From NCBI GenBank assembly GCA_964580185.1, contig CAZOJQ010000008.1:2426-66425 (forward strand): 64,000 bases of DNA, written 5' to 3'. The position numbers were made by a program, and so were the translations under genes. Below are positions 27,189 through 56,311 of the stretch, piece by piece (position 1 is the first letter of the stretch; every line of letters starts with the position of its first letter). Under the pieces are notes generated by a model that was not told the origin of the DNA, did no database searches, and saw only the letters and a list, made by a program, of their open reading frames with translations. Source of the stretch: an uncultured Thermotogaceae bacterium. GTDB lineage: Bacteria > Thermotogota > Thermotogae > MWEM01.

Positions 27189-27656
27189 TCATTCCTTCAT
27201 TTTCTCGGATGCCTTTCTCACGGCATTCTCAATTTTGACGTATCCTGTACAGCGACAAAGGTTGCCTTCCAGTCCTTTTCGGATTTCTTGAGTACTGGGA
27301 TTGGGGTTATGGTCCAAAAGTGCCTTAGTGGCCAGAATTATCCCCGGCGTGCAAAACCCGCATTGAACAGCTCCTTCATCAATAAACGATTGCTGAATTG
27401 GATGAAGACCCTGGTCTGTTCCAAGTCCTTCGATTGTTTGGATTTCTTTCCCGTCGAGCTGAGCGGCCAGAAGCAGACAAGAACAAACCGCTTCGCCATT
27501 CATAAGGATCGTGCATGCCCCACACTCGCCTTCTCCGCACCCTTCTTTGACACCAGTGAGAGAAAGGGACTCTCTGAGAAAATCCAAAGCCCTCAGATCA
27601 TCGGGAACATCCGCCTCCTGGTTTTTTCCATTGATCCGAAATTGGATGGGGATCAT
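27189..27656 (-). CDS. (2Fe-2S)-binding protein, CoxS/XdhC small-subunit family of molybdopterin hydroxylases
   Basis: Two cluster motifs: CGEGECGAC..C (plant-type) and CGFCTPG...CRCTGY. 155 aa. Confidence 0.8.
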   Translation of the reverse strand: MIPIQFRINGKNQEADVPDDLRALDFLRESLSLTGVKEGCGEGECGACTILMNGEAVCSCLLLAAQLDGKEIQTIEGLGTDQGLHPIQQSFIDEGAVQCGFCTPGIILATKALLDHNPNPSTQEIRKGLEGNLCRCTGYVKIENAVRKASEKMKE

Positions 27657-29700: not shown

Positions 29701-30423
29701 TTAGTTGGAGGGTGGAACAATCCACAACTCTGAATGTCCATCCGCTTCTCGTTCTACTAAGTTGGCCACTCCAAGTTTGACAATCTCAAGAATGGCCAAA
29801 AAAGTGACGATCAGTGAAATCCGGTCTTCCGCTTCGGACAGAAGCGGGCGAAATTCCAATTCGCCCTCCTCCTGGAGCCGTTGTGTCAGGCTTCGGACCC
29901 GAGATGTGAGGGAATACCGCTCCCCTTTGACTCGATATACCTTTTCTCTGAGTTTGAGTTCATTATAAGCGCTCCGAAAGACCTCCAAGAGCTTCTTCGG
30001 TAACTCGCGCGTTCGGTCCTTGGGGAGGATTTTATTCCGGACAATTGTGCCAAATCGTTTTTGGGCATCTTCAAATCGGCTATCCAAAAAGGTGACAATC
30101 TGCTTCATCTGCTCATATTCCTGCAATTGGTTTTCCAGTTGCGCTTTGGCGTTCCGGAATTCTTCCTGATCGTCGTCTTTTGCCAAGAGCGCTTTCGATT
30201 TCAACTCCATGAGAGTAGAAGCCATAACCAAAAAATCAGAGGCGATAAATACATCAATTCGCTGCATTTTTTCTACATAAGAAGAAAACTCATCTGCAAT
30301 CAAGGCAATTTGTATGTCCCGTATATCCATCTGGTGTTTGCGGATGAGAAAGAGAAGCAAATCCAAGGATCCTTCAAACGCTCCGATTTGGAACTGAAAG
30401 GTGTCTTGAAGTTCTTCGCTCAT
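29701..30423 (-). CDS. scpA: Segregation and condensation protein A (kleisin)
   Basis: N-terminal motif FEGSLDLLLFLIRKHQMDIRDIQIA is typical of ScpA. 240 aa. Confidence 0.75.
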   Translation of the reverse strand: MSEELQDTFQFQIGAFEGSLDLLLFLIRKHQMDIRDIQIALIADEFSSYVEKMQRIDVFIASDFLVMASTLMELKSKALLAKDDDQEEFRNAKAQLENQLQEYEQMKQIVTFLDSRFEDAQKRFGTIVRNKILPKDRTRELPKKLLEVFRSAYNELKLREKVYRVKGERYSLTSRVRSLTQRLQEEGELEFRPLLSEAEDRISLIVTFLAILEIVKLGVANLVEREADGHSELWIVPPSN

Positions 30424-30424
30424 C

Positions 30425-31414
30425 TTAGAACATCAGATGCATCGCAGTACGAACTTTTTCCAAAGTCTGATGGGCAATGATCATGGCTTTCTGATTCCCC
30501 TCTTCAATTGCTTGGTGTACGATCGAGGGACGCGCTTCGATTTCAGAAAGCTTGCTCCAAATGGGTGATAGGATTGCAGTAAGATTTAGGATTAGCGCTT
30601 TTTTGCACTCAATACACCCAATCTTGGCTTTTGTGCACCCTTCGGTAATCCATTGCGCCTGATCGGGTGGTACCTGAAACGCTTTGTGATACGACCAAAC
30701 AGGGCACTTTTCCGGGTCGCCCGGATCGGTCTTTCTTTTGCGGGCTGGATCGGTAATCATTGGAAGGATTGCTTGTTCCAGTTGTTCCGGGGAAGAGTCG
30801 ATCTCGATCACATTGCGATAACTTTTTGACATCTTCCGGCCGTCGGTTCCGAGAAGTTTTGTAACGGGAGCCAGAAGGGATTTCGGTTCCGGGAACAGAT
30901 CGATTTCATAGAGATAGTTGAACCTCCGAGCAATTTCTCGGGATAGCTCAAGATGGGAAAGTTGGTCTTCTCCTACTGGAACCGCTTCCCCCAGAAGAAC
31001 CAAGATATCGGCCGCTTGGAGAATGGGATACATGAGAAAGCCCATATTGGATAAATCCCGATCGGAAAGTTCTTGTTTCATGTCTTTGTAGGTGGGGACT
31101 CGTTCCAAGCGTGCCACTGAAGTAAACATGGAAAAAAGCAAGGTAAGTTCTGCGGTCTCTTTCAGAGCGGATTGAACGAAAAGCACCGATTTCTCGGGAT
31201 CCAGCCCGCACGCTATGAATGTTTTCATGACTTCAAAGGTATTTTGGGGGATCATCCGGGTATTGGCGTAATCTGTAGTCAAGGCATGCCAATCAACTAC
31301 GAAAAAAAAGGTTTCATTTCCTTCATTTTGCAAGCGGACCCAGTGTTCCAAAATCCCGACATAGTGCCCGATATGAAGCTTGCCTGTAGGTCTCGTACCG
31401 CTAACAATCCTCAC
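30425..31414 (-). CDS. trpS: Tryptophan--tRNA ligase
   Basis: HIGH motif (GKLHIGHY) and KMSKS motif (KMSKS). Apparent GTG start preceded by GGAGGTG. Confidence 0.9.
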   Translation of the reverse strand: MRIVSGTRPTGKLHIGHYVGILEHWVRLQNEGNETFFFVVDWHALTTDYANTRMIPQNTFEVMKTFIACGLDPEKSVLFVQSALKETAELTLLFSMFTSVARLERVPTYKDMKQELSDRDLSNMGFLMYPILQAADILVLLGEAVPVGEDQLSHLELSREIARRFNYLYEIDLFPEPKSLLAPVTKLLGTDGRKMSKSYRNVIEIDSSPEQLEQAILPMITDPARKRKTDPGDPEKCPVWSYHKAFQVPPDQAQWITEGCTKAKIGCIECKKALILNLTAILSPIWSKLSEIEARPSIVHQAIEEGNQKAMIIAHQTLEKVRTAMHLMF

Positions 31415-31447
31415 CGTTTACACCTCCGAACTTTCAATTTACCGATC

Positions 31448-31456
31448 AATTGTACC
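31448..31456 (-). promoter_or_regulatory. Putative extended -10 element (TGGTACAAT) of the trpS promoter, inside an AATTGT-N3-ACAATT inverted repeat
   Basis: Reverse complement of attgtacca at 31448-31456, about 35 nt upstream of the GTG start. Confidence 0.35.
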
Positions 31457-31540
31457 ACAATTCGGCTTTGTACGGACAAAACTCGAAAGATCGGTAGAGG
31501 GTTCCAGAAGGATGGAACCCGGGACAAGGGATGGGTTCAT

Positions 31541-31577
31541 AAAAAAAAGGAGCGAAATGGATTCGCTCCTTTGGTTT
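31541..31577 (-). terminator. Rho-independent terminator downstream of gdhA (bidirectional hairpin)
   Basis: 8-bp perfect stem GGAGCGAA/TTCGCTCC with a 5-nt loop. On the minus strand it is followed by an 8-T run; on the plus strand it is flanked by TTTGGTTT. Confidence 0.75.
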
Positions 31578-31627
31578 GATGGAAAAGCTTGTGCGTTGCT
31601 CAGGCCGTTTTGAAGATTTGATGAGTG

Positions 31628-32896
31628 TCAGGGATAGATCCCTCGTAGCTTCGTAGCATGAGCAACTTTTTCAATGGCCACAACGTAGGCTGCGGATCGC
31701 ATATCGGTTTTGTATCGTTCCGCGCAATCGGCCACATCGGCGAAGGCTTTTTCCATGATGGAGTGCAACGCTTGTCGAATCCGGTCCAAATCCCAGAAAA
31801 ACCATTGCAGCCCTTGAACCCATTCAAAATAGGAAACAGTGACCCCACCGGCATTGGCTAAAAAGTCGGGCACACAGAAAATGCCTTTCTTGATGAGGAT
31901 TTCGTCCGCTTCGGGGGTAACAGGCCCATTTGCCCCTTCTACGATGATCTTGGCACGAATGTGATCCGCATTGTTTTGATTGATCACATTTTCCAACGCA
32001 GCCGGAATCAGGATATCGACATCCAAGGTAAGCAACTCTTCGTTGGTCATTACCTTTTCTGCTTTGGGATAGCCTTTAATGACTTTGTTCGTCTTCACGT
32101 ATTCCATAACGTCTTGCACATCAAACCCATTGGAATTGTACATACCTCCGGACACATCACTAATCCCTAAGATTGTTGCTCCACATTCCTGCTGGGTAGT
32201 CAGCGCAGCGAAAGAACCAACATTTCCAAATCCCTGTACCGCCACGGTCATCTTGTTAATCGGTTTGTTGATGACTCCTTTATCGTTCAGGTATTTTACC
32301 GCTTGTTCGGCGCAAACTCTGCATCCTCTGCCCGTTGCTTCATTTCTACCAAGAGATCCACCAATGTCAACGGGTTTGCCTGTAACAATTCCTAACACCG
32401 AGTGGCCAATATTCATACTGTAGGTATCCATGTACCATGCCATGATTTGGGCATTGGTATTCACATCAGGTGCGGGAATGTCTTGGTTTTCCCCGATGAT
32501 GATCTGGATTTCCGAGAAGAATCTTCGGGATAATCGTTCAATTTCCGAATCGGAGAGGAGGCTGGGATCTACTTGAACACCACCTTTACCACCGCCATAA
32601 GGAATACCGACCACTGCACTTTTCCAGGTCATCCAAAACGCAAGGGCCTTGACTTCGTCTAAGGTAACGTCGGGATGGTATCGGATCCCACCTTTGGCTG
32701 GACCCCTGGTTAAACTGTGCTGTACCCGATGCCCAGTAAAAACCTTGATGGAACCGTTATCCATGCGCACAGGGAAATTAACGGTTAACTCCCGTTTGGG
32801 TAACGACAGGGCTTCTCTCATCGATGGATCGAGTTGCATTACATCTGCAGCCTTGTTAAACTGTTTTAGCGCATTTTCAAAAAGACTCAACGCCAT
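31628..32896 (-). CDS. gdhA: NAD(P)-specific glutamate dehydrogenase
   Basis: GDH family motifs, including the catalytic-lysine region (GGGKGG), and a Rossmann domain. Start moved to MALSLFEN, which follows a perfect AAAGAGGAGG RBS. Confidence 0.85.
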   Translation of the reverse strand: MALSLFENALKQFNKAADVMQLDPSMREALSLPKRELTVNFPVRMDNGSIKVFTGHRVQHSLTRGPAKGGIRYHPDVTLDEVKALAFWMTWKSAVVGIPYGGGKGGVQVDPSLLSDSEIERLSRRFFSEIQIIIGENQDIPAPDVNTNAQIMAWYMDTYSMNIGHSVLGIVTGKPVDIGGSLGRNEATGRGCRVCAEQAVKYLNDKGVINKPINKMTVAVQGFGNVGSFAALTTQQECGATILGISDVSGGMYNSNGFDVQDVMEYVKTNKVIKGYPKAEKVMTNEELLTLDVDILIPAALENVINQNNADHIRAKIIVEGANGPVTPEADEILIKKGIFCVPDFLANAGGVTVSYFEWVQGLQWFFWDLDRIRQALHSIMEKAFADVADCAERYKTDMRSAAYVVAIEKVAHATKLRGIYP

Positions 32897-33097
32897 AACC
32901 TCCTCTTTTTGGTTTTTTTCAATTTTTTTCTGGATATTGATCATCGTTTCTATACCGATTCTACACGAACTCTTGCGTTTTCCTGCCTTCTAATTGTGCG
33001 GGTTTTTCGCCTTTAGGTTGAATCTAGTGCCAAGAGAGTAGTCATACTTGCTCAATGAGAAGTATGCTTGTGTATACATGAAAGAGATACCATTCCA

Positions 33098-33709
33098 TTA
33101 TGTACCATTGGAAAAGGAAGACGATCCCGGTTTCTTTTTCCCGTGTTTCTTTCTGATGATCGATCGCGTCAACAGTAAGGCCCCACCAAGAAGCGCGTAT
33201 AAACTGATGATCCAGAGAATGATTTCAAAACGCGAAATGATGATGATGCCGAATGTGATACTGACAATCCCTGCAAGGGCAATCACCCATTTATACCAGG
33301 AGCCTGCTGTTTTCAAAGGGAGCAAGAACCCTACAACGGTTTCCAAAACGCCAAAATAGATCAGTGTCAACCCAACCACAAAAACCGCAATCGTTCCAAC
33401 AAATCCCGGTGCAGCAAACGATAGGATTCCGATGATGATGCCTGCAAACATTTCAAATCCGGTCATTACCTTGTTTTGATCTGTGTCTTTTTTAAAAAAC
33501 ACAAAGAGCTTGTAAGCGCCTATGGCAAAACCCAAAATCCCGATCAGCGTAATGATGATCTTGGAGGATTCTTCTGGCCAGATGAGAGTAACCGTTCCGA
33601 AAACGACCATGATGATCCCCTTGTAAAGCCAGTCATACCATTTCCGCCGAGAGTATTCCGCCTTTTTTTCTCCGAAAAATGAGATTCTTCGCGTCTTTTC
33701 TTCCACCAA
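33098..33709 (-). CDS. DUF308/HdeD-family membrane protein
   Basis: Six TM helices with a repeated Gly-rich helix pattern. 203 aa. Confidence 0.5.
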   Translation of the reverse strand: MVEEKTRRISFFGEKKAEYSRRKWYDWLYKGIIMVVFGTVTLIWPEESSKIIITLIGILGFAIGAYKLFVFFKKDTDQNKVMTGFEMFAGIIIGILSFAAPGFVGTIAVFVVGLTLIYFGVLETVVGFLLPLKTAGSWYKWVIALAGIVSITFGIIIISRFEIILWIISLYALLGGALLLTRSIIRKKHGKKKPGSSSFSNGT

Positions 33710-33768
33710 ACCACATCCTTCCTAGGAGCATTTGCCCCAATACCATTCATCGAAAACGCGTTCAATTG

Positions 33769-34218
33769 CTAAAAAAGGACACGAACCAGTTCCTCAGGAT
33801 CAAGACGATAGGACGAGGGATTTCCCTGGAAAAAATGGTGCTCATGGATCAAATGAAGCGCCAACTCTGAGTAGGTTACACATTCCTGGGTGGATATTCT
33901 GCAGACGCGCACGTTAACCTTAGCGTAGACACCGTCTTGGAAGGGACATACCAGTTTGCCACGGGCTTCATCCACCCAAACTTCCCATTCATCTTCCACC
34001 CCAATCGGCTCCCCGAGTCCTTTCCGCCCATGAATCATGAAGTGTTCCATCCGTTGATATAGGTCATCGAACGATTTTCCCGATTTGGCTAATCGTTCTT
34101 CATCTTCGGTAATGATATCGATCAAAGGGCGTTGATCCTCTCCGAGAAATCCCTGTCCAGAAATTACTCCTGGTTGCATATTTCTCTGAGCCATCTGCAA
34201 TTCTGGGGTCATTTTCAT
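33769..34218 (-). CDS. Hypothetical protein (150 aa), terminal gene of the Nqr/Rnf-like operon
   Basis: GGGGGG RBS followed by ATG begins 8 nt after the nqrF-like stop. No recognised domain. Notable His-rich stretch HLIHEHHFF. Confidence 0.45.
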   Translation of the reverse strand: MKMTPELQMAQRNMQPGVISGQGFLGEDQRPLIDIITEDEERLAKSGKSFDDLYQRMEHFMIHGRKGLGEPIGVEDEWEVWVDEARGKLVCPFQDGVYAKVNVRVCRISTQECVTYSELALHLIHEHHFFQGNPSSYRLDPEELVRVLF

Positions 34219-34229
34219 CGTATCCCCCC

Positions 34230-35354
34230 CTAGGCAAATTTGTCGTAATAGATCCGGTCTTCCGGGATCCCATTGTTCTTCATAACCTGCACGCATGCGT
34301 TGATCATGCCGGGGCTTCCGCACAAGTATCCTTCTTTGGCATGATCGGAATCTACCCGATCGCGCAGGTATTCGTCCAGGACATCGGTAATTAACCCTGT
34401 TTCGCCCTTCCATTCATCTTCGGGCAATGGGTCGGATAAAGCGGGAATGAAATGGAAAAGGGGCCACCGTTCTTCCAAATCTCCGAAAAGATCTAGATAG
34501 AAAAGGTCTCTTTTAGAGCGAGCTCCAAAGAAATACCAAATATGCCGCGATTGATCCCCTTTTTCAAACAAATCCATTAGGATCGACTTGATGGGCGCCA
34601 TCCCGGATCCACCGGCTACGCAGATCATATCTGCATCGGTGTCACGGACGTAAAAATCTCCAAAAGGCCCGATCAGTTCGATTGATTGTCCTTCTTTCAG
34701 GAGTTCGTGAACATACGTCGTTGCAATCCCATTCGGTACTCGTCGGATGAGCAATTCGACGGTTTTTGGTTGGGAGGGATTTGATGACATGGAATACGCT
34801 CTTTGTGTTGATTCGGGGATTTTGCGGTAGGGAGGAATCACAAGTTGGACATATTGCCCAGCTTGGTATTCAATGGAAGCAGGCTTTTCTAGAGAGATCC
34901 GTACCTCTTTGATATCATGAGTCACATCGTTCAATGAATCGATCACTCCCAGATACGGCCGGGCTATGAACAGTTCTTCGGGGATTTGGATTTGGATGTT
35001 CGCTTTCAGCTTGATCTGACAAGACAATCGAATCCCATCTTGCTGCTCCTGTGGGGTTAGTAGGGGGTATTCCGTTGGAAGGATCGGCCCAATATCGGAA
35101 AGGACCGTAATTTTGCAGGCCCCACAGCTCCCCCGCCCTCCACAGGCAGATGGAATGAACACCTCCTGCTCGGAAAGGGCCGAAAGGAGAGATGCGCCTC
35201 CTTTTGTTTGGAGAATCTTCTTTCCCCGGTTGATATCGATTTTCACTTCTCCGTAGTTGTTGACGATCGCGTCAATGATGGCGATGGTTAAAGCCAAAAT
35301 CGCTCCGATTCCTCCAACGACGAGTGGGGCAATCCAGATTGACATTCCGATCAT
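34230..35354 (-). CDS. nqrF: Na+-translocating NADH:quinone reductase subunit F-like (TM helix + [2Fe-2S] ferredoxin + FAD/NAD(P) FNR domain)
   Basis: N-terminal TM helix, ferredoxin motif CGGRGSCGACK...C, and the FAD-binding motif RAYSMSS (NqrF-typical RAYSMAN). Confidence 0.7.
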   Translation of the reverse strand: MIGMSIWIAPLVVGGIGAILALTIAIIDAIVNNYGEVKIDINRGKKILQTKGGASLLSALSEQEVFIPSACGGRGSCGACKITVLSDIGPILPTEYPLLTPQEQQDGIRLSCQIKLKANIQIQIPEELFIARPYLGVIDSLNDVTHDIKEVRISLEKPASIEYQAGQYVQLVIPPYRKIPESTQRAYSMSSNPSQPKTVELLIRRVPNGIATTYVHELLKEGQSIELIGPFGDFYVRDTDADMICVAGGSGMAPIKSILMDLFEKGDQSRHIWYFFGARSKRDLFYLDLFGDLEERWPLFHFIPALSDPLPEDEWKGETGLITDVLDEYLRDRVDSDHAKEGYLCGSPGMINACVQVMKNNGIPEDRIYYDKFA

Positions 35355-35359
35355 CCTTC

Positions 35360-35953
35360 CTATTGAACGCTCAACATACCCGCAAAGCCAATGAACGCCA
35401 TCGCCATGATCCCAATGGTAATGAGCGTGATTCCTGGACCCTGCAAAGCAGGAGGTATGGGATTTTTGTCAATTCTTTTCCGGATTGCTGCAAGCAACAG
35501 GATGGCAAGCCACCAGCCAATTCCTGAACCTGCGCCGAATAAAACCGATTGAAGAAAATTGTAATGACGAAGCTGCATGAACAGGGCAACACCCAAAATG
35601 GCGCAATTGACGGTGATCAAAGGGAGGAAGATCCCTAGACTGATATACAAAGAAGGAGAGAGCCGGTCGATCACCATTTCAAGAACTTGTACAACGGCGG
35701 CTATGACAATGATGAAAACGATGTAGCGTAGATACTCCAGCTCAAGAGGGATGAGAACCGAATGAAGGACAACCCAGTTCACCGCAGTTGTGAGGGTCAT
35801 GACCAAAGTTACTGCCATCCCCAATCCATTGGAGGATTTGAAATCTTTAGAAACTGAAATGAATGAACACATACCCAAGAAGTTGGTCAGGAGAATATTG
35901 GAAGTGAATATTGCTGCAAAGAAAAGGATCAATGCATGAATGGGAGGGGTCAT
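35360..35953 (-). CDS. nqrE: NqrE/RnfA family membrane subunit
   Basis: 197-aa six-TM protein of the NqrDE/RnfAE family. Confidence 0.7.
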   Translation of the reverse strand: MTPPIHALILFFAAIFTSNILLTNFLGMCSFISVSKDFKSSNGLGMAVTLVMTLTTAVNWVVLHSVLIPLELEYLRYIVFIIVIAAVVQVLEMVIDRLSPSLYISLGIFLPLITVNCAILGVALFMQLRHYNFLQSVLFGAGSGIGWWLAILLLAAIRKRIDKNPIPPALQGPGITLITIGIMAMAFIGFAGMLSVQ

Positions 35954-36579
35954 GGCTTTGCCTCCTGATTCTTTTTTGTCGCAGTTTTTGCCAAATAATT
36001 CCCGCGCGCGATCCAGATAAAAATCCCCAACATGAAAAACCCACTAGGGGCCATGATCATTATGGTCCAAGGGACAAACGATTCGGATAGCAAGCGGATG
36101 CCAAATATGGAACCAAATCCCAAAATTTCTCTGCATATGGCAATCGTCATGAGGACAATCATAAACCCAAACCCAGTTGTCAACCCATCCCAAAAGGAGA
36201 GAAATGGTTTGTTGGACTGCGCAAAGGCTTCTGCCCGACCCATGATGATGCAGTTGGTAATAATAAGACCCACATACGGTCCCAGGGCTTTGCTAATGTT
36301 TGGGAGAAAAGCTCGAAGGGCGATATCTACCAAGATTACAAAGAAGGAAATGACCAAGGTTTGGATGATCATCCGCACTTTTCTCGGGATCCAGTTTTTC
36401 ATTAAGGAAAGGAAGAAGTTTGAAAAGGCAGTGACAAAGGTGACACTTGTCGCAAGAATCAGGGTGTTCATTGCATCATTGGTGACTGCTAAAGTCGAGC
36501 AGATACCCAATATTTGCACGAATACCGGATTGTTTCCCCATACATTATCTTTGAGGATTTGCGCCGATTTGGATGCCAT
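35950..36579 (-). CDS. nqrD: NqrD/RnfE family membrane subunit
   Basis: 209-aa polytopic protein that is a paralogous partner of the preceding subunit. 4-nt overlap. Confidence 0.7.
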   Translation of the reverse strand: MASKSAQILKDNVWGNNPVFVQILGICSTLAVTNDAMNTLILATSVTFVTAFSNFFLSLMKNWIPRKVRMIIQTLVISFFVILVDIALRAFLPNISKALGPYVGLIITNCIIMGRAEAFAQSNKPFLSFWDGLTTGFGFMIVLMTIAICREILGFGSIFGIRLLSESFVPWTIMIMAPSGFFMLGIFIWIARGNYLAKTATKKNQEAKP

Positions 36580-36580
36580 T

Positions 36581-37198
36581 TTAAATCCCCCCTTCGTGAA
36601 CCAAAGCTTGAAGGATATGGAGGGATTGGTTCAGGATCTTTTCCACAGATTCGGATGTTAGAGTCGCGCCTGTGACAGCATCAACAGCGGCATTATCAGG
36701 ATCGGGATCGCCCAACCTTCCTGCGGAACGAAGCATGGTTATTCGACCTTCCGGGATGGCTTCATTCCGGAATTGGTCTTTAAACCAAAGATCATCGATT
36801 CGGCCACCCAATCCAGGAGTTTCATTTTGTTCGATGAAATCAATTCCTACGATCCGCGAAGCATCCTCGTTAACAGCCACGATACCGGTGATCGTTCCCC
36901 AGAGTCCATTTCCCGTGAATCGAATTGCATACACGGTTTCTCCTTCTCGAACGGTTTGGTATAAAACCCCTTGACTGGTGTCGTGCTCAGTGATAGTTTC
37001 GTCATAGAGATCATACACTTGATCGATCCGATCATAGGGAATATCCATGGCGAATAGGACTGCTCTGCGAAAGAAGAGTTCGTTATTTCGAGCAATCGGT
37101 TCTTTTGTGCTTTCATTCGCTAAGGCAAGGAGAGCGACTAAGACAAAGGTTACCCCGAAGGTGAAAAGGACGGAATAGGTTTTGCTGTCTTTTTTCAT
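36581..37198 (-). CDS. nqrC: NqrC/RnfG family FMN-binding subunit
   Basis: Single N-terminal TM helix and the covalent-FMN motif TGATLTS near the C-terminus. Start moved to MKKDSKT (206 aa). Confidence 0.7.
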   Translation of the reverse strand: MKKDSKTYSVLFTFGVTFVLVALLALANESTKEPIARNNELFFRRAVLFAMDIPYDRIDQVYDLYDETITEHDTSQGVLYQTVREGETVYAIRFTGNGLWGTITGIVAVNEDASRIVGIDFIEQNETPGLGGRIDDLWFKDQFRNEAIPEGRITMLRSAGRLGDPDPDNAAVDAVTGATLTSESVEKILNQSLHILQALVHEGGI

Positions 37199-38097
37199 GG
37201 GTTCACCTTCTTGGGTTTCGGGATTTTCAGATCGATCAAAGAGGCGAACGTATTCCCGATCAATACGCCAAAACTCGTTCCTTCGGGGAAGAGGGAAAAG
37301 GTTCGGACCAGTACTGAAGAAACCCCGATGATCATTCCATACAACCATTGCGCTTTGGGTTTCTTGGGAGCTGAAACTGGATCGGTTGCCATAAATACTA
37401 TCACAAAAAGAATGCTTCCTGAAATAAAGGAATGAAATGCTGGCAAAGCCCTGGCTACCCCAAAGATATCAAGGATCAGTATGAGTCCAAACGAACTAGC
37501 CAGCGTTGAAACGATAATCCGCCAGCTCGCTGTCTTTGTATACAGAAGGTAGATCGCTGCCAACAGGATTAAAAGAATCGGTCCTTCTCCCATAGCCCCA
37601 GCGCGGTTTCCGATAAGGGTATCCCAAACGGAAAAGGTTTTTCCCTCCCGAAGAATGGAGAGGGGTGTGGCTGAAGTCATTACATTTGATCCAAATCCGC
37701 CTGGTTCAAGAAATCGAGCGGTCATTTCTCCTGGGAAAGCAATATATATAAATAACCGTCCGACAATGGCTGGATTAAAGACATTCTTGCCAAATCCTCC
37801 ATAGGCTTCTTTGCCCATGATTACCCCGAACATGATCCCAACCAATGCGATCCACCACGGAGTTAACGGCGGAAGAGACAGAGTGAAGAGCATACAGGTA
37901 ACAAGGACTGCTTCGCTGACTTTCTTTTTTTGTCGTCGTTCCATCAGGAATTCAGATAAAATCCCGCCCGCGAACACGACGAGAGACAGCAAAAGCAAAT
38001 GCCACCCATACGCCCAAAACGCGAAGGCATAGATGGGGATTAATGCATAGATCACACGCCGCATCATGACTTGCTTGGTGAAAATGTTTATGGCCAA
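37195..38097 (-). CDS. nqrB: NqrB/RnfD family membrane subunit
   Basis: Polytopic membrane protein with the FMN-attachment-like motif SATPLS. At 300 aa it is shorter than canonical NqrB and closer to RnfD. Confidence 0.65.
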   Translation of the reverse strand: MAINIFTKQVMMRRVIYALIPIYAFAFWAYGWHLLLLSLVVFAGGILSEFLMERRQKKKVSEAVLVTCMLFTLSLPPLTPWWIALVGIMFGVIMGKEAYGGFGKNVFNPAIVGRLFIYIAFPGEMTARFLEPGGFGSNVMTSATPLSILREGKTFSVWDTLIGNRAGAMGEGPILLILLAAIYLLYTKTASWRIIVSTLASSFGLILILDIFGVARALPAFHSFISGSILFVIVFMATDPVSAPKKPKAQWLYGMIIGVSSVLVRTFSLFPEGTSFGVLIGNTFASLIDLKIPKPKKVNP

Positions 38098-38143
38098 ATG
38101 GATCCTTCTCCTCTCCTAAGGTTTGGTCGGCTGACTGAACCGA

Positions 38144-39910
38144 TCATTCCACCCGAATTGAAATAGCAAAGGTTTGAATCGGAGGGTCCGTTTCCCATGG
38201 GCGGCTGAAGGAAAACACAATAACGGTTTCGCCTGGTTGCAATGCTTGAAAGGTCCATTCCACTTGATACCCAGGGCCGATCAGTCTTATAGCGGGTTCA
38301 TACGGGATTTCTTGCCGATCAATGACCAAAACCACTTCCGGATTTTGAATCTCTACAGACCAGACATACCCTGTTGCGGCGTTTTCTGGCAGGGAGATAC
38401 CGGAGTACTGCCCGATTGATAGGAGATTGGTCTGCCATATAAGGTCTTTCCGTTCTGGAGTGGACGATTTCGTGATCAGCGGAGTAACCAGAATGCTCGG
38501 AGCGTAGGAACGGATGATCTGTTCGAACCTGCCATCTCGTTTTATACTGTCCAAGGCTTTTTGCAGTTGATAGACAAAGTGCGGATGCGTTCCTTTGGAT
38601 GCTGTTATGTAGAAATCTTGAGTCCGAACCGGCAATAGGGGAACGACATCATTGATGGAATATCCCGCGGACTCGAACAGAGAGGGCGCGGTTAGGTCGG
38701 TGAAGATCGCGAGCTCCACATCTCCATGAATCAGTTGATGTACAGTGTCTCGAGGATCCAAAGCGCTCTTCAGGTTAGCAAACCCTAGGTCTTTCAACAA
38801 TTGCTCAGTCCACCAATCTTGAGTGGTTCCAATGGCTGAGTATGCTTTGGCTGCCATCAGATCAGGGAGGATTGACTCAAAGTCTCTTCGACCATAAAGA
38901 TAAGCGGTATTGCTTCCTACGGGTCCAATCCAACTAAACAAAGGGTCCCGCAAAGGAGTCCGATCCATACTGAATAGCAGAATGTTGGGAAGATTCAACG
39001 CCAAATCGTATCCGATGGCCCACGGAACAACCAAAATCTCTTGATCCATTCCTACCTGTTCCATAAGCGCTTCCATGATTTCAACGACAAATCCCGAAGG
39101 ACGATGATTCGCTCCCATGAAAGTCACAGGAGGGTATTCTTCGGTGATTAGCGTGTATATTCCGGGTACATAATGATCTGGGAGCCACCTTTTGTATATC
39201 TCTGCAAATGCTCCGCTCTCCTTGAGTTCGTCCAAAACTCTTTGCCAATTAGCGATGGTGTCCGAAGGGACGCTTTTCGAAAAGCCCAAAAAGTTCATTT
39301 CCAAGTGAATGGGAATGACCGGAACCATAGTCAAAGAGGATTCATGAACCATGAAGCTTGGCGCGACAATTGAGTTAAAAGGAGCAAGTTCGATCTTGTT
39401 TTCGAGAAGATCGTCGAACATTTTTTGTTCATGATCGTAGACAATCAAATTCTCGAATCCCGAATCCAGTAAGATTTGATGAGAATAGTAGTTGCGGACG
39501 ACTCCGATGGAAGTTGCCAGTTTGGCCTCTTCCATGGAAGAAATGATCAACAGTTCCTTTGAAGAAGCATACAGATTGGTCATATTGATTGCCAGAGGAC
39601 CGACCCATTGGAATTGGTCTTTTCTGGCTGGAGTATACACCAGAGTTGGCAATGAAACCATATCTCCATCCAACATACGGGCGATTGCTTGATCAACGGA
39701 GGAAGGATCCCAATGGATGGTATCTCCCAACCGATCTGCAATCAAATTGGCCACTTCAACGACTAACCCAGCGGCGCTTCCGTTTTCTTCGTATGTCAAC
39801 GGGTAATAGTCAGGGTGGTACAAGAAAGTGAGTTCTCCTCCAAACCCTTTACCCAATCCAATAATCCCCACAATCCATAGATACACAACCCATTTTTTCC
39901 ATCGAGCCAT
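38144..39910 (-). CDS. Exported protein with two tandem type-3 solute-binding (SBP_bac_3-like) domains and a C-terminal chagasin-family (I42) cysteine-peptidase-inhibitor-like domain
   Basis: N-terminal signal/anchor, then two repeats with the SBP3 pattern (YTPARKDQFQWVGPL and the second copy). The C-terminal ~100 aa carry the three chagasin motifs ENAATGYVW (NPTTGFAW), IGPGYQVEW (GxGG-like) and FSRPWE (RPW). Confidence 0.5.
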   Translation of the reverse strand: MARWKKWVVYLWIVGIIGLGKGFGGELTFLYHPDYYPLTYEENGSAAGLVVEVANLIADRLGDTIHWDPSSVDQAIARMLDGDMVSLPTLVYTPARKDQFQWVGPLAINMTNLYASSKELLIISSMEEAKLATSIGVVRNYYSHQILLDSGFENLIVYDHEQKMFDDLLENKIELAPFNSIVAPSFMVHESSLTMVPVIPIHLEMNFLGFSKSVPSDTIANWQRVLDELKESGAFAEIYKRWLPDHYVPGIYTLITEEYPPVTFMGANHRPSGFVVEIMEALMEQVGMDQEILVVPWAIGYDLALNLPNILLFSMDRTPLRDPLFSWIGPVGSNTAYLYGRRDFESILPDLMAAKAYSAIGTTQDWWTEQLLKDLGFANLKSALDPRDTVHQLIHGDVELAIFTDLTAPSLFESAGYSINDVVPLLPVRTQDFYITASKGTHPHFVYQLQKALDSIKRDGRFEQIIRSYAPSILVTPLITKSSTPERKDLIWQTNLLSIGQYSGISLPENAATGYVWSVEIQNPEVVLVIDRQEIPYEPAIRLIGPGYQVEWTFQALQPGETVIVFSFSRPWETDPPIQTFAISIRVE

Positions 39911-39958
39911 GATTGCACTCCTCCTGTCAATGGTTTTCAGTACTCATCGTCCAATCCA

Positions 39959-40483
39959 TCAAAGAGGATCAGAGATTATGCCACGAAGATCTTGGAAATA
40001 CTGCTTCTGGAGCTGAAACATTACGCGAGACTGATCCGGGTCTTTTTCATGATCCATTCCGAGAAGATGAAGGAGGGAATGGATCAAAAGAAAAGCCATC
40101 TCTTCGTACGGTTGATGGCCTTCTTCCGTCGCTTGTCTTTCTACCTCTTGGGCTGAGAAATAAATTTCTCCCACGAGGGGTGATTCTTCTCCAACCATAT
40201 CCCATTGGGTTTCTTGGTCTAGATAGTTGAAGGTCAAGACATCCGTGGTTTCTTGTTTATTTCGGTATTGGCTGTTCAAACGGCGCATTTCTTCATTATT
40301 GGTGTAAATGATGTTCAATCGAGACCCGAGCGCTGCAAATCCCTTGGGCATTACATGGTCGACAATGGCTTGTATTTGAGGAAGAGAAAGGGGCGCTTGT
40401 TGCTCGGGGCCAATTGCCATTAGTTCTACAGTAAGGCTGGCGCTTTTGCGTTCATCCATTTCCTTTTCCTCCTTTTTCCCCAA
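39959..40483 (-). CDS. ybeY: Endoribonuclease YbeY (rRNA maturation factor)
   Basis: Metal-binding motif HSLLHLLGMDHE. Confidence 0.85.
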   Translation of the reverse strand: MGKKEEKEMDERKSASLTVELMAIGPEQQAPLSLPQIQAIVDHVMPKGFAALGSRLNIIYTNNEEMRRLNSQYRNKQETTDVLTFNYLDQETQWDMVGEESPLVGEIYFSAQEVERQATEEGHQPYEEMAFLLIHSLLHLLGMDHEKDPDQSRVMFQLQKQYFQDLRGIISDPL

Positions 40484-41918
40484 TGATCAAAGCGATTTCC
40501 TCTTTCGGGTATTCGATTCGTTTGTGGGAGAATTTATGGAGGACGCGAATAAATTCCTCGATAATGATTTCAATATCCTTCAAGGTCAAGCCTGAATCAT
40601 CCAACTGTCTTTCCAGATAGATCCCGTTGATGATATCATTGACTACTTCTTTGATCTTTTGAATGTTTGGATTCTGAATGCTCCGAGCTGCGGCTTCAAC
40701 AGAATCCGCAAGCATCAAAATTCCGGCTTCTTTAAACTTTGGACGGGGTCCCAAGTATCGAAACTGTTCTTCGGTTACAGACAAATCGGCGGCTTTTGCT
40801 TTGTTGTAGAAGAACTTTTGAACCCTTGTTCCGTGATGTTGAGCCGCTAAATCTTGAAAAAGGAGGGGGAGTCGGTACTTTTCGCAAAGTTCAACCCCAT
40901 ATCGGATGTGCTCCTGCAAAACCAAGTGACTCAGATTGGGCGCCAAATGATCATGCGGATTTTCGTCCGTTTGGTTTTCAACGAAAAAGAGCGGTTTTTT
41001 TATCTTTCCAATGTCATGAAAATATGCGCCCGTTCTTGCCAAGATGGGGTTAACCCCGATTTTCTCAGCAGCGGCTTCCGAAAGGTTTGCCAGCATAAAG
41101 CTATGGTAGTAGGTGCCTGGAGCATTCTCCAATAAGCTTTTTAAGAGGGGTTGGTTCAGGTTGCCTAGTTCCATCAGCCCAATGTTGGAATAGATTCGGC
41201 TTCCCCATTCGACATAGGGTAAGATCCCAACCACAAGAACCGAAGAGATGGGAGGCAAAATGCTTACAAGTAGCAGGTCTATCAATTGAAACCGTTCAAA
41301 TCCTGCGTACATCAATAAAAGAAAGAAAGCGCCTTTCAACGCTCCAAGCAAAAAAGAATACATAGCGAGATCGATTCTACGGTTGATATTTTGGACCACG
41401 CTAGCCGTAGCAACACCAGTGAGAAGCAAGAAAAGAATATATGGTGCACTGCTTGGGAACAGGATTCCAGCGTGAAAAGCAATAAAAATGGCGGCCGCGT
41501 GTCCGGCTCGTTTTCCAAAAAGGATCGCAACCATTGCAACCCCAAGAAAAACCGTTACGCTCAGATGACCCATCGAAAAACCCATCAAGGTGTTCAATGT
41601 GCATTGGAAAAGGAGGACGGAGTAAAAGGTAATGCGATAGCTTCTGTGCAATAAGAAAAATCGGTTTTTGACAATTGCTGTTTCGCAAATCAGGAGTTCG
41701 ATTGCGAACAGAAAAAGGAAAGTCATGAGGAAAAAAAAGATCTGCTGGTTTCCAAAGGTGAGAGTCGTTACAAGGCTTAAGAAAACTGCATTGATGAACA
41801 TTTCCCAATTCATCCGTACGTACCGTTGGAAATGCCTGATTATTTGATGGGCAGAAACCAGTTTATCCTTGCGTTGAGTCTTCATTTGGTTGCATCTCCT
41901 CGAATCGCTCGTATGCAT
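40452..41918 (-). CDS. 7TM-receptor HD-domain phosphohydrolase (PgpH/YqfF-like); exact start uncertain
   Basis: Seven TM helices followed by an HD domain (HSFMLANL...AYFHDIGK). Conserved phoH-pgpH-ybeY gene order. Confidence 0.7.
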
Positions 41919-42897
41919 CGATAATGCTTTTTACTAAAGGATGGCGAATCACATCCTGTTTTCCCAAAGAAACGAACGATATTCCAAGGACTCCTTTTAA
42001 TATCGACTGACATTCCACCAACCCAGAGGCCACTCCCTTTTGTAGGTCTACTTGGGTAATGTCTCCTGTAATGACCACTTTTGAGTAAAATCCGATCCTT
42101 GTAAGGAACATCTTCATCTGCTGATGGGTTGTGTTCTGCGCTTCGTCTAAAATGATGAAGGAATGATTCAACGTTCTTCCGCGCATATATGCCAATGGGG
42201 CAATTTCGATAATTTGCTTTTCTTTCAGAAATTGAAATCGTTCCGGGGTAATCATATCAAAGAGGGCATCATACAAAGGCCGGAGATAGGGATCCACCTT
42301 CTCTACCAAACTACCTGGGAGAAATCCCAATCGCTCACCGGCTTCAACGGCGGGTCGTGTCAGAATAATCCTCTGAACTTTCCCCGATTTCAATGCTTCC
42401 ACGGCCATAGCGACCGCAAGATACGTTTTCCCTGTACCCGCTGGACCAATAGAAAAAACCATATCATTTTCTTTCATGGCTTCCAAATACTTGGCTTGTC
42501 CTTTGGTTTTGGGTTTGACCTTGGCCATCTTTAACAAAGCGCTCTGGGCTCCAAGGACGGGAGACTGAAAGCCAACCTCCTCTTGGGCAATGGAATTGTT
42601 TGATTGTCTCAATTCTTTGCCCATTTGAGTGTATCGGTCAAGAAGGTATTCTGTTTCCATATCATCGGGAACATGACCCAGTTGAACCATCCGAACAAAT
42701 TCGGAAAGCATTCGAACCGCAGATTCCACTTGACCCGAATCTTCTCCCCGCACCCATATTTCATCATCAACTGCGCTGATATCCACTTGAAATCGCTCTC
42801 GGAAAGTACGGAGTTTGGCATCTTTCTGTCCGAAGAGGTATACAAGCTCAACATCATAAGGAATTGGGATCTTTTTCAAAGATAATGCCAAATTCAC
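41863..42897 (-). CDS. phoH: PhoH-like ATPase with N-terminal KH domain
   Basis: Walker [14 protein letters not shown] plus PhoH C-terminal motifs. 344 aa. Confidence 0.8.
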
Positions 42898-56244: not shown

Positions 56245-56311
56245 CTCCTTCATAAGGATAGTAATCAATCTGGAAAAACCTTGTTCGAGGTTGGAATGAG
56301 CTGATGACGAT

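What the first reader, a model, noticed from the sequence alone, without database searches (positions are those of the whole stretch)
33769..38097. NqrA-less, RnfB-less Nqr/Rnf hybrid ion-pump operon (B-C-D-E-F order) ending in an unknown 150-aa gene
Five contiguous minus-strand genes encode homologues of NqrB/RnfD, NqrC/RnfG (TGATLTS FMN motif), NqrD/RnfE and NqrE/RnfA, then an NqrF-type subunit (TM helix + plant [2Fe-2S] + RAYSMSS FAD/NAD FNR domain). No NqrA (or RnfC) homologue and no polyferredoxin RnfB is encoded anywhere in the window. The NqrF-type subunit rather than RnfB argues for Nqr. The missing NqrA, the short RnfD-sized B subunit (300 aa) and the presumably anaerobic, quinone-poor host argue for an undescribed intermediate in which NqrF feeds an Rnf-like membrane core. 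The operon ends with a tightly coupled 150-aa ORF (8-nt gap, GGGGGG RBS) of no recognisable family, carrying a His-rich HLIHEHHFF stretch. That ORF could be an assembly factor, a flavin-maturation factor, or the electron-acceptor module.
Basis: partly seen in the sequence, partly recalled or inferred. Interest (0 to 1): 0.7.

Follow-up and report, generated by a model that had tools for sequence, protein, structure and literature searches.

The report
NqrA-less NQR pump with new subunit
This is a six-gene operon for a sodium-pump-type NADH dehydrogenase that lacks the usual NqrA subunit and always carries an uncharacterised 150-residue protein. That protein is sometimes fused to rubredoxin, and the operon often sits beside oxygen-detoxification genes, which suggests what this long-unexplained enzyme of anaerobes reduces.

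Summary
Window 33769-38097 (minus strand) holds six tightly packed genes, B-C-D-E-F-X. All cofactor ligands of an NQR/RNF membrane core are present, along with an NqrF-type NADH input subunit. No NqrA, RnfC, RnfB, NqrM or ApbE is encoded anywhere in the window.

NqrA-less nqrBCDEF operons were already noted in passing in 2014 and 2018, with the electron acceptor called unknown. A reciprocally rooted D/E tree places this system in the NQR lineage (198-199 of 200 bootstraps), so it is not an Rnf hybrid.

What appears new is gene X.
- It follows F in 70 of 73 related loci where sequence after F is available, spanning about nine phyla, with a median gap of 12 nt.
- It belongs to a large family (997 clusters at 50% identity).
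- It has no Pfam, NCBIfam or PDB relative, and its confident predicted fold has no match.
- In some operons X is fused to rubredoxin.
- Rubredoxin, superoxide reductase, rubrerythrin, flavodiiron and nitroreductase genes flank 19 of 80 loci, often adjacent and on the same strand.

Best reading (inferred, about 45%): an ion-pumping NADH:rubredoxin-type oxidoreductase that feeds oxygen and peroxide detoxification, with X as the cytoplasmic output or adaptor module. This is a new variant of a known kind.

The parts
37195..38097 (-). B subunit (NqrB/RnfD family, 300 aa, TTG start). It carries the flavinylation motif MTSATPLS and the conserved FMATDPVS. It lacks the ~95-residue N-terminal extension of NqrB.
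   Evidence: PF03116 at 1.8e-81. NqrB NF003756 scores 209.7 bits and rnfD TIGR01946 scores 203.7 bits, both below their cut-offs. PDB matches: NqrB 139 bits, RnfD 134 bits. Alignment.
36581..37198 (-). C subunit (NqrC/RnfG family, 205 aa). It has a membrane anchor plus an FMN_bind domain with the flavinylation motif DAVTGATLTS. Its start overlaps the stop of B (ATGA).
   Evidence: PF04205 at 1.2e-17. NqrC models score 90-93 bits and rnfG 75 bits, all below their cut-offs. Alignment.
35950..36579 (-). D subunit (NqrD/RnfE family, 209 aa). Both Cys ligands of the intramembrane [2Fe-2S] cluster are conserved (LGICS, TNCIIMGRAE).
   Evidence: PF02508. NqrD NF006777 scores 227 bits against a cut-off of 235. 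PDB matches: NqrD 181 bits versus RnfE 157, 124 and 99 bits. Tree.
35360..35953 (-). E subunit (NqrE/RnfA family, 197 aa). Both Cys ligands are conserved (LGMCS, VNCAILG), as is the VQVLEM glutamate.
   Evidence: PF02508. rnfA scores 223.7 bits and nqrE 220.6 bits, both below their cut-offs. PDB matches: RnfA 189 bits, NqrE 186 bits. Tree.
34230..35354 (-). F subunit (NqrF type, 374 aa; gene callers use a 371-aa start). It consists of an N-terminal TM helix, a plant-type [2Fe-2S] ferredoxin domain (CGGRGSCGAC...C) and an FNR-type FAD/NADH domain (RAYS). It lacks two insertions found in classical NqrF.
   Evidence: Fer2 + FAD_binding_6 + NAD_binding_1. TIGR01941 nqrF scores 290.3 bits against a cut-off of 295. 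V. cholerae NqrF scores 230 bits versus 150 for the next family. Identity to K. pneumoniae NqrF is 38%.
34219..34229 (-). F-X intergenic spacer (11 nt, GGGGGGATACG). It carries a G-run Shine-Dalgarno-like sequence and implies translational coupling.
   Evidence: Sequence read. The median F-X gap in related loci is 12 nt.
33769..34218 (-). X: a conserved sixth gene encoding a 149-aa soluble acidic protein (pI 5.1, no TM segment) of a family that is not yet named. Conserved core residues are GFLG-D28-x-R30, D39, G87, (C/S)91-P92, K100, H122, H127, F129, G132, S135, R138 and P141.
   Evidence: No Pfam or NCBIfam hit. 997 representative clusters match at E<=1e-3. X directly follows F in 70 of 73 loci. 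AF2 gives pLDDT 88, rising to 91-96 with a deeper alignment. No fold or sequence relative in the PDB. No similarity to NqrA or RsxC. Conservation analysis.

Best explanation
The six genes encode one membrane complex of the NQR lineage. The steps below are marked as shown or inferred.

Shown from sequence:
- F takes a hydride from NADH (FAD, then its [2Fe-2S] cluster).
- The D/E pair keeps the four cysteines of the intramembrane [2Fe-2S] cluster.
- C and B keep the threonines that carry covalent FMN.
- B keeps the NqrB/RnfD core, where riboflavin sits in solved complexes.
The electron path NADH -> F -> D/E -> C -> B, and the acidic residues implicated in ion translocation, are therefore intact.

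Also shown: there is no NqrA, RnfC or RnfB. In their place a soluble 149-residue protein X is encoded immediately after F in almost every relative.

Inferred: X binds the cytoplasmic face of B, which NqrA or RnfC covers in the known complexes. There it acts as the electron-output or adaptor module. It passes electrons from the riboflavin of B to a soluble high-potential acceptor instead of to quinone or NAD+. The most likely acceptor is rubredoxin. Through rubredoxin the electrons would reach rubrerythrin, superoxide reductase, flavodiiron O2/NO reductase or nitroreductase-type enzymes.

NADH (-320 mV) to rubredoxin (around 0 mV; general knowledge) spans about the same potential as NADH to menaquinone. 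The reaction could therefore drive Na+ or H+ export. Fermentative anaerobes without quinones would then conserve energy while detoxifying oxygen species.
For: - Core cofactor ligands are intact, and the family assignments hold.
- The system is of NQR lineage: A-less + NQR form a clade in 198/200 (D) and 199/200 (E) bootstraps of a paralogue-rooted tree.
- The gene set is conserved. In 80 loci found through F, from Spirochaetota, Thermotogota, Bacillota, Fusobacteriota, Verrucomicrobiota/Kiritimatiellia/Victivallales, Cloacimonadota, KSB1, Krumholzibacteriota and Desulfobacterota, the order B-C-D-E-F-X is kept. X follows F in 70 of the 73 loci with sequence after F, at a median gap of 12 nt. 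The flanks are otherwise unconserved, and no locus has NqrA, RnfC, RnfB or NqrM.
- X relatives with only 28-32% identity still sit in the same operon.
- Fusions point to electron output. X-rubredoxin occupies the sixth position of a BCDEF operon on 11 contigs. X-rubredoxin, X-rubrerythrin-like and X-nitroreductase fusions occur among family representatives.
- Neighbours point the same way. One locus reads Rbr-AhpC-FDP-SOR-ferritin-Rbr-B-C-D-E-F-X, all on one strand. Rubredoxin lies immediately upstream of B on the same strand in three loci of the Planctomycetota-Verrucomicrobiota-Chlamydiota (PVC) group. A rubrerythrin-like gene overlaps the X stop codon in L083.
- Overall 19 of 80 loci carry 34 such genes in 728 kb of flank. 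24 of them are on the operon strand and 16 lie within 2.1 kb (Pfam-verified).
- Such genomes have only about 1-3 rubredoxin genes each (PMC5924567).
- Precedent: the E. coli Rnf homologue Rsx is annotated as reducing the soluble [2Fe-2S] protein SoxR.
Against: - In this window no rubredoxin or ROS-defence gene lies next to the operon, and 76% of related loci have none within about 8 kb.
- The background frequency of such genes was estimated, not measured on the same genomes.
- X shows no recognisable cofactor motif. Cys91 is Ser in 19 of 59 operon-linked members, and only H122 is an invariant histidine.
- The AF2 model of the X-rubredoxin fusion does not fix the two domains relative to each other (pTM 0.72, linker pLDDT about 60).
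- X-like domains also occur in long multi-repeat, apparently secreted proteins, so the domain is not restricted to this complex.
- Three loci (L038, L039, L041) have BCDEF without an adjacent X.
- No biochemical data exist, and the coupling ion and the acceptor are untested.
- ApbE, which would be needed for flavinylation, was found near only 2 of 88 loci.
Confidence: 0.45

Rival explanations
1. It is an NADH:(mena)quinone oxidoreductase that works without NqrA. Quinone binds to B as in V. cholerae NQR. X is a small structural subunit that stabilises the exposed cytoplasmic face and has no role in electron transfer.
For: NqrA carries no cofactor, and its function is unclear according to the 2025 review (PMC12174285). 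D and E group with NQR. B scores marginally better against NqrB than against RnfD.
Against: B lacks the N-terminal ~95 residues of NqrB. The carriers are mostly fermentative anaerobes (Thermotogota, Spirochaetota, Clostridia, Cloacimonadota), which as a rule are not known to make quinones (general knowledge, not tested here). This rival does not explain the X-rubredoxin fusion or the clustering with ROS-defence genes.
Confidence: 0.2
2. X is a dedicated maturation factor and is not part of the mature complex. It could, for example, deliver iron for the D/E [2Fe-2S] centre, as a functional analogue of NqrM. The true electron acceptor would then be unrelated to X.
For: No NqrM homologue was found in any locus. 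X has conserved His, Asp and Cys/Ser residues. NqrM likewise follows nqrF in classical operons. A rubredoxin domain could serve as an iron-binding module.
Against: Rnf complexes assemble the same centre without NqrM (general knowledge). Cys91 is not conserved. X is also fused to rubrerythrin-like and nitroreductase domains, which are acceptors and not assembly proteins. Tight translational coupling suggests stoichiometric production.
Confidence: 0.15
3. X is itself the terminal catalytic subunit: a new small redox enzyme that reduces O2, H2O2, superoxide or another small molecule. In that case BCDEFX would be a self-contained respiratory complex.
For: Rubredoxin domains are typically fused to the enzymes they feed, as in rubrerythrin and desulfoferrodoxin (general knowledge), and X-Rd fusions exist. 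X has invariant H122, K100, D28/D39 and R30/R138 on a confidently predicted new fold. X-like domains also occur outside the operon context in other proteins.
Against: No metal- or flavin-binding motif was recognised and there is no structural relative. The fusions to complete rubrerythrin-like and nitroreductase enzymes fit an adaptor role better than a second catalytic site.
Confidence: 0.1
4. It is an Rnf-like ferredoxin-linked complex, running NADH to ferredoxin in reverse on the ion gradient, with F substituting for RnfC.
For: B is RnfD-sized, and E scores as well against RnfA as against NqrE. The hosts use ferredoxin-dependent [FeFe]-hydrogenases.
Against: There is no RnfB-type polyferredoxin or other low-potential Fe-S module. 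F enters at the D/E end of the chain as in NQR. The D/E phylogeny excludes RNF. Known carriers already have a canonical Rnf as well (PMC4148951, PMC5924567).
Confidence: 0.05

Closest known systems
Na+-translocating NADH:quinone oxidoreductase (Na+-NQR, NqrABCDEF) of Vibrio cholerae / Klebsiella pneumoniae
   Same: The gene order B-C-D-E-F is the same. The F subunit is of NqrF type. All cofactor ligands of B, C, D, E and F are present. D and E are phylogenetically sister to NQR.
   Different: There is no NqrA and no NqrM. B lacks the N-terminal ~95 residues. F lacks two insertions and is only 34-38% identical. No subunit reaches an NCBIfam equivalog cut-off. There is an extra conserved gene, X. 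The acceptor is probably not quinone.
Rnf complex (RnfCDGEAB; Acetobacterium woodii, Clostridium tetanomorphum, Azotobacter vinelandii) and E. coli RsxABCDGE
   Same: The four-subunit membrane core is homologous. B has RnfD length. Like Rsx, which reduces SoxR, the complex may reduce a soluble cytoplasmic iron protein linked to oxidative stress.
   Different: There is no RnfC and no RnfB. NADH enters through an NqrF-type subunit at the D/E end. The D/E phylogeny excludes it from RNF.
NqrA-less 'NqrBCDEF' noted in Thermotoga (Pseudothermotoga) thermarum/lettingae, Clostridium ultunense, Alkaliphilus metalliredigens and 'Ca. Izimaplasma' ZiA1
   Same: It is the same system. L068 is a Pseudothermotoga locus, and F homologues from Pseudothermotoga, Thermosipho, Petrotoga and Marinitoga are 59-67% identical (PMC4148951, PMC5924567, PMC6256511).
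   Different: Those papers list five genes and call the acceptor unknown. None of them mentions the sixth gene X, its fusions, or the link to rubredoxin and ROS-defence genes.
'NQR/RNF-like' flavinylated systems of Meheust et al. 2021 (eLife, PMC8238504)
   Same: Both are partial NQR/RNF systems in anaerobes and candidate phyla that use an NqrF-like NAD(P)H-binding domain.
   Different: That class is defined by a single protein that fuses an NqrB/RnfD membrane domain to the NAD-binding domain, and it lacks D/E. Here B and F are separate and the complete B-C-D-E core is present. Under the operational definition of that paper, this operon would have been counted as NQR.
Soluble NADH:rubredoxin oxidoreductase (NROR) - rubredoxin - rubrerythrin/SOR/flavodiiron chains of clostridia, Thermotoga and Pyrococcus (general knowledge)
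   Same: The proposed overall reaction is the same: NADH to rubredoxin, then to the O2/ROS-reducing enzymes. The partner genes are also the same.
   Different: NROR is a soluble pyridine-nucleotide-disulfide-family flavoprotein with no ion translocation and is not homologous. The system here would be membrane-bound and energy-conserving.

Membership tests
Na+-NQR (NqrABCDEF) | NqrF subunit: TM helix + [2Fe-2S] ferredoxin domain + FNR-type FAD/NADH domain | tested here: met
   The domain architecture and ligands are present. The best PDB and NCBIfam matches are NqrF (230 bits; 290.3 bits against a cut-off of 295).
Na+-NQR (NqrABCDEF) | NqrA subunit encoded with the operon | tested here: not met
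   No hit with K. pneumoniae NqrA in the window or in 88 loci. No NQRA Pfam family among the window ORFs scanned. The gene upstream of B varies between loci. X is unrelated to NqrA.
Na+-NQR (NqrABCDEF) | Each subunit reaches the curated NCBIfam equivalog score | tested here: not met
   B scores 209.7 against 414, C 93.3 against 329, D 227.1 against 235, E 220.6 against 247.6 and F 290.3 against 295.
Na+-NQR (NqrABCDEF) | Covalent-FMN threonines in B and C, and four Cys in D/E for the intramembrane [2Fe-2S] cluster | tested here: met
   Alignment with K. pneumoniae Nqr and E. coli Rsx shows SAT(P) in B, SGAT-type TGAT in C, and two Cys each in D and E. Actual flavinylation cannot be tested here.
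Na+-NQR (NqrABCDEF) | NqrB N-terminal cytoplasmic extension (~95 aa) | tested here: not met
   B aligns only to NqrB residues ~130-398 and is 300 aa long against 412-415 aa.
Na+-NQR (NqrABCDEF) | D/E subunits group phylogenetically with NQR and not with RNF | tested here: met
   Paralogue-rooted NJ tree: 198/200 and 199/200 bootstraps. Only gammaproteobacterial NQR references were available, so sister versus nested position is unresolved.
Na+-NQR (NqrABCDEF) | Quinone reduction and Na+ pumping | not testable with these tools
   This needs biochemistry.
Rnf (RnfABCDGE) | RnfC (FMN, 2x[4Fe-4S], NAD(H) site) and RnfB (polyferredoxin) | tested here: not met
   No significant hits with E. coli RsxC or RsxB beyond generic Fer4 domains of unrelated proteins. 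The only Fer4 protein in the window is an [FeFe]-hydrogenase.
Rnf (RnfABCDGE) | Subunits reach the TIGRFAM rnfA/D/E/G subfamily scores | tested here: not met
   rnfD scores 203.7 against 207.05, rnfG 75.4 against 102, rnfE 170.1 against 213.4 and rnfA 223.7 against 229.3.
NQR/RNF-like system of Meheust et al. 2021 | Single protein with an N-terminal NqrB/RnfD domain fused to a C-terminal NAD_binding_1 domain | tested here: not met
   B (PF03116 only) and F are separate genes, and D and E are present. The definition is taken from PMC8238504.
X family (unnamed ~150-aa protein family) | About 150 aa with the motifs GFLGxDxR ... D ... G-x3-(C/S)PF ... K ... H-x4-H-x-F-x2-G-x-GS-x2-R-x2-P, encoded directly after the NqrF-type gene | tested here: met
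   The window X scores 189 bits against the family profile and holds all the conserved residues. Its position after F matches 70 of 73 loci.

The most novel reading that the evidence does not exclude
BCDEFX is a previously unrecognised class of respiratory enzyme in strict anaerobes: a Na+/H+-pumping NADH dehydrogenase whose terminal module X is a new-fold redox protein. X would either reduce rubredoxin or directly reduce O2, H2O2 or superoxide. Oxygen detoxification in quinone-free fermenters would then be coupled to energy conservation. On this reading NQR evolution also included a swap of NqrA (RnfC-derived) for an unrelated output subunit.
Probability: 0.35. Interest if true: 0.85.

Novelty: new variant of a known kind. 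Interest (0 to 1): 0.7.

Why it matters
Since 2014 genome papers have noted NqrA-less nqrBCDEF operons in Thermotogae and clostridia and have stated that the electron acceptor is unknown.

This analysis shows that the unit is really six genes. The sixth protein is a large family with no annotation and a new predicted fold. Gene fusions and neighbourhoods point to rubredoxin and the oxygen/peroxide-defence enzymes as the electron sink.

This turns an open question into a direct experiment: does the complex contain X, does it reduce rubredoxin with NADH, and does it pump Na+? Cultured carriers are available, including Ilyobacter polytropus, Pseudothermotoga lettingae, Marinitoga and Thermosipho.

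If the proposal is true, it would add an energy-conserving step to oxidative-stress defence in anaerobes. It would also refine the picture of how NQR evolved from RNF.

Tried and rejected
- Word-index homologue search with X alone found only 7 relatives and made X look lineage-specific. The exhaustive profile search overturned that impression, finding 997 clusters.
The single genome scan was therefore spent on F.
The natural X-rubredoxin fusion was modelled instead, but it does not fix the orientation of the two domains.
- Promoter and terminator scans around the operon were not above shuffled expectation.
- Scans for Rex, PerR and Fur boxes upstream of B were inconclusive. PerR-like matches were found in 13 of 66 upstream regions against 16 of 325 mostly coding controls, so the comparison is confounded by AT-rich intergenic composition.
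- The idea that the 445-aa ORF at 47075-48412 could be a divergent NqrA was rejected, because it is GNAT-like.
- The upstream SBP/chagasin gene and the downstream DUF308 gene were considered as possible parts of the system. The SBP gene is not conserved next to the operon, and DUF308 recurs only in two other loci.
- The host phylum could not be settled. D and E group with Marinitoga and Pseudothermotoga, and rpoC is 1664 aa, but the closest F hits include both Thermotogota and Spirochaetia.

Full report
**The observation**

Listing ORFs across window 30000-42000 shows six co-directional minus-strand genes:
- B, 37195-38097
- C, 36581-37198
- D, 35950-36579
- E, 35360-35953
- F, 34230-35354
- X, 33769-34218

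The B/C and D/E junctions overlap by 4 nt. C/D and E/F are separated by 1 and 5 nt.

Pfam assigns B to NQR2_RnfD_RnfE, C to FMN_bind, and D and E to Rnf-Nqr. F carries Fer2 + FAD_binding_6 + NAD_binding_1, and X has no hit. NCBIfam places every subunit between the Nqr and Rnf models and below every curated cut-off, with F only 5 bits short of nqrF.

Alignment with K. pneumoniae NqrB-F and E. coli RsxA/D/E/G (loci fetched) shows that the key residues are present. These are the FMN-carrying threonine motifs of B and C, the four cysteines of the D/E intramembrane [2Fe-2S] cluster, the four cysteines and RxYS motif of F, and the conserved acidic residues of B, D and E. B lacks roughly the first 95 residues of NqrB.

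**Is NqrA, RnfC, RnfB or ApbE elsewhere in the window?**

No significant match was found.
- phmmer with K. pneumoniae NqrA and NqrM and with E. coli RsxC, RsxB and ApbE against all ORFs of at least 40 aa gave no significant hit in the window. The only match was a marginal RsxB hit (E 0.004, 16 bits) to the 618-aa [FeFe]-hydrogenase.
- Pfam scans of 40 ORFs of at least 150 aa, chosen by hand as likely genes, gave none of the relevant families. Six further large ORFs were recognised by eye and not scanned.
- That hydrogenase is also the only protein with 4Fe-4S motifs.
- A 445-aa ORF of NqrA-like size is GNAT-like.

The hydrogenase supports an anaerobic, fermentative host.

**Prior knowledge**

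The NqrA-less arrangement is not undescribed.
- A 2018 paper reports the same for Clostridium ultunense, P. lettingae and Alkaliphilus metalliredigens, and speculates about a lower-potential acceptor (PMC5924567).
- A 'Ca. Izimaplasma' genome announcement lists NqrBCDEF.
- The 2014 evolutionary study of NQR did not find nqr in Thermotogae (PMC4014512).
- The 2025 RNF/NQR review does not treat such forms.
- The 'NQR/RNF-like' class of Meheust et al. 2021 is a different thing, an NqrB-NAD-binding fusion.
- Searches for NqrA-less forms and for papers linking NqrF or Nqr to rubredoxin turned up nothing on a rubredoxin link, and none of the papers read mentions a sixth gene.

**How widespread is it, and is X part of it?**

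A word-indexed search with X alone found only seven relatives, all in B-C-D-E-F-X operons with different flanks. An exhaustive profile search of 1.84 billion cluster representatives found 997 clusters at E<=1e-3 and 279 at E<=1e-10.

F has thousands of homologues. The closest (58-67% identity) come from Thermotogota (Petrotoga, Marinitoga, Tepiditoga, Fervidobacterium, Thermosipho, Pseudothermotoga) and Spirochaetota.

The best 80 loci span nine or so phyla.

In those 80 loci I located B, C, D, E, F and X with phmmer/hmmsearch.
- The order is invariant.
- All six genes are present in 65 loci.
- X follows F in 70 of the 73 loci that have sequence after F, with a median gap of 12 nt.
- Three loci (L038, L039, L041) genuinely lack an adjacent X.
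- Clustering of flanking genes found nothing else conserved.
- No locus has NqrA, RnfC, RnfB or NqrM, and only two have ApbE nearby.
- X relatives with only 28-32% identity to the window X still sit after F.

A cultured organism, Ilyobacter polytropus DSM 2926, carries the operon on its megaplasmid, where X is annotated as 'hypothetical protein'. Classical NqrF proteins are only 34-38% identical to the window F, so the A-less clade is clearly separated from them.

**Phylogenetic position**

D and E are paralogues, so a joint tree roots each half. The tree used 33 A-less sequences, NQR from V. cholerae and K. pneumoniae, and RNF from E. coli, A. vinelandii, A. woodii and C. tetanomorphum. The PDB sequences were transcribed from the alignments.

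In an NJ tree with 200 bootstraps, A-less and NQR form a clade excluding RNF in 198 (D) and 199 (E) replicates. The system therefore belongs to the NQR lineage. 'Hybrid' describes its HMM scores, not its ancestry.

Only gammaproteobacterial NQR was available as a reference. I therefore cannot say whether the clade is sister to all NQR or nested within it, and 'intermediate' remains untested.

**What is X?**

- It is a soluble, acidic protein (pI 5.1) with no hydrophobic segment.
- AlphaFold2 gives a confident alpha/beta model (pLDDT 88). With a deeper alignment, in the context of the fusion protein, the X domain reaches 91-96.
- A family profile finds no PDB sequence.
- hhalign detects no relation to NqrA or RsxC.
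- Among 59 operon-linked members the invariant residues are G17, G87, P92, K100, H122, F129 and G132.
- D28, R30, D39, H127, S135, R138 and P141 are nearly invariant.
- Position 91 is Cys in 40 members and Ser in 19.

**Clues to function**

Three lines of evidence bear on this.

1. Fusions. Family representatives include X-rubredoxin (P0174, P0199), X-rubrerythrin-like (P0168) and X-nitroreductase (P0179). The X-rubredoxin protein P0339 is encoded on 11 contigs. In the three contexts shown it occupies exactly the sixth position after F, and the full B-C-D-E-F set is visible in L093.

2. Neighbourhoods.
   - One lineage has rubrerythrin-peroxiredoxin-flavodiiron protein-desulfoferrodoxin-ferritin-rubrerythrin immediately upstream of B-C-D-E-F-X, all on the same strand.
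   - In the 80 loci chosen through F, without regard to neighbours, 19 carry 34 genes for rubredoxin (9 loci), rubrerythrin (9), superoxide reductase (6), nitroreductase (3), ferritin (3) or flavodiiron protein (2).
   - These lie in 728 kb of flank. 24 are on the operon strand and 16 are within 2.1 kb (Pfam checks).
   - Rubredoxin sits directly upstream of B in three loci from the Planctomycetota-Verrucomicrobiota-Chlamydiota (PVC) group, and a rubrerythrin-like gene overlaps the stop codon of X in L083.
   - Comparable anaerobe genomes have about one to three rubredoxin genes each (PMC5924567). My estimate is that this is at least a tenfold enrichment, but the background was not measured on the same genomes.

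3. Precedent. E. coli Rsx, an Rnf homologue, is annotated as the system that reduces the soluble [2Fe-2S] protein SoxR.

**Mechanism proposed**

Shown from sequence: an intact path NADH -> F -> D/E -> C -> B, no NqrA/RnfC/RnfB, and a sixth soluble protein that is produced with the complex.

Inferred: X occupies the cytoplasmic face of B and passes electrons from the terminal flavin to rubredoxin, or directly to tethered acceptors in the fusion proteins. This would supply the O2- and ROS-reducing enzymes. The ~300 mV drop from NADH would be used to export Na+ or H+.

I put this at about 0.45. The rivals are:
- a quinone reductase with X as a structural subunit (0.2);
- X as a maturation factor analogous to NqrM (0.15);
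- X as a catalytic terminal reductase (0.1);
- a ferredoxin-linked Rnf-like function (0.05).

Weaknesses of the proposal:
- The window itself has no ROS gene next to the operon.
- X has no recognisable cofactor motif.
- The modelled X-rubredoxin fusion has a flexible linker and no fixed interface (pTM 0.72).
- X-like domains also occur in long multi-repeat, apparently secreted proteins.

**Verdict**

It overstates novelty for the five-gene core, and the 'hybrid' ancestry is not shown.

What appears new, within the literature I could search, is threefold. X is a near-universal sixth gene of a widespread NQR-lineage system. X defines a large unannotated family with a new predicted fold. Fusions and neighbourhoods point to rubredoxin-linked oxygen defence as the missing electron sink.

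I rate this a new variant of a known kind, with interest 0.7.

Noticed in passing
window 38144-39910 (-): A 588-aa protein ends 46 nt upstream of the B gene. It has two SBP_bac_3 solute-binding domains and a C-terminal chagasin-type peptidase inhibitor (I42) domain, which is an unusual architecture. It is not conserved next to the operon in other loci.
   Followed up: partly
window 33098-33709 (-); L032 9610-10212: A DUF308/HdeD-like membrane protein gene directly follows X in the window. The same is seen in two Oceanispirochaeta-type loci. The meaning of this recurrence is unknown.
   Followed up: partly
window 54485-56341 (-): A 618-aa [FeFe]-hydrogenase (Fer2_4, NADH-G 4Fe-4S, 2xFer4, Fe_hyd_lg_C and Fe_hyd_SSU domains). 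It marks the host as a fermentative anaerobe. An NhaC-type Na+/H+ antiporter lies nearby at 51543-52901.
   Followed up: partly
window 57162-62156 (-) and 62166-63992 (-): rpoC encodes an unusually long 1664-aa beta' subunit and is preceded by rpoB. From memory, that length resembles Thermotogota RpoC. D and E of the operon also group with Marinitoga and Pseudothermotoga, but the host phylum was not settled.
   Followed up: partly
window 27189-27656 (-): A stand-alone 155-aa CoxS-like protein with two [2Fe-2S] domains (Fer2 + Fer2_2). No molybdenum hydroxylase large subunit lies next to it; its neighbour is aspartyl-tRNA synthetase.
   Followed up: no
window 7602-9293 (-): A RACo-like reductive activator of corrinoid enzymes (Fer2 + RACo middle + RACo C-terminal ASKHA domain). 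No corrinoid protein or methyltransferase gene was identified nearby.
   Followed up: no
window 13138-13896 (+): A nitroreductase-family gene about 20 kb from the operon. It is the only member of the ROS/redox-stress gene classes found in the window, and it is too far away to count as linked.
   Followed up: no
L027 4706-5149 (-) and two other loci: An RseC/MucC-family membrane protein gene lies divergently upstream of B in three loci. In E. coli RseC works with the Rnf homologue Rsx in reducing SoxR (general knowledge), so this may be a meaningful accessory gene.
   Followed up: no
P0130 (885 aa), P0230 (2506 aa), P0247 (385 aa), P0264, P0268: X-like domains also occur as two or three tandem copies in long proteins, one of which has an N-terminal signal-peptide-like sequence. 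The domain therefore has a life outside the NQR-type operon. These contexts could not be looked up.
   Followed up: partly
L038, L039, L041 (after F, ~9100-9700): Three loci (Salinispira, a Fusobacteriaceae MAG and a Spirochaetia MAG) have B-C-D-E-F but no X after F. Two of them have a rubredoxin gene 1-5 kb downstream. X may lie elsewhere in those genomes or be dispensable.
   Followed up: partly
upstream of B in L078, L061, L050, L042 and others: PerR-box-like palindromes (TTATAATNATTATAA with 1-2 mismatches) lie upstream of the operon in several loci. The enrichment over control regions is confounded by AT-rich intergenic composition.
   Followed up: partly
window 36032-36661 (+): A 209-aa ORF lies antisense to the D gene. 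Its length mirrors D, and it is almost certainly a shadow ORF and not a gene.
   Followed up: no
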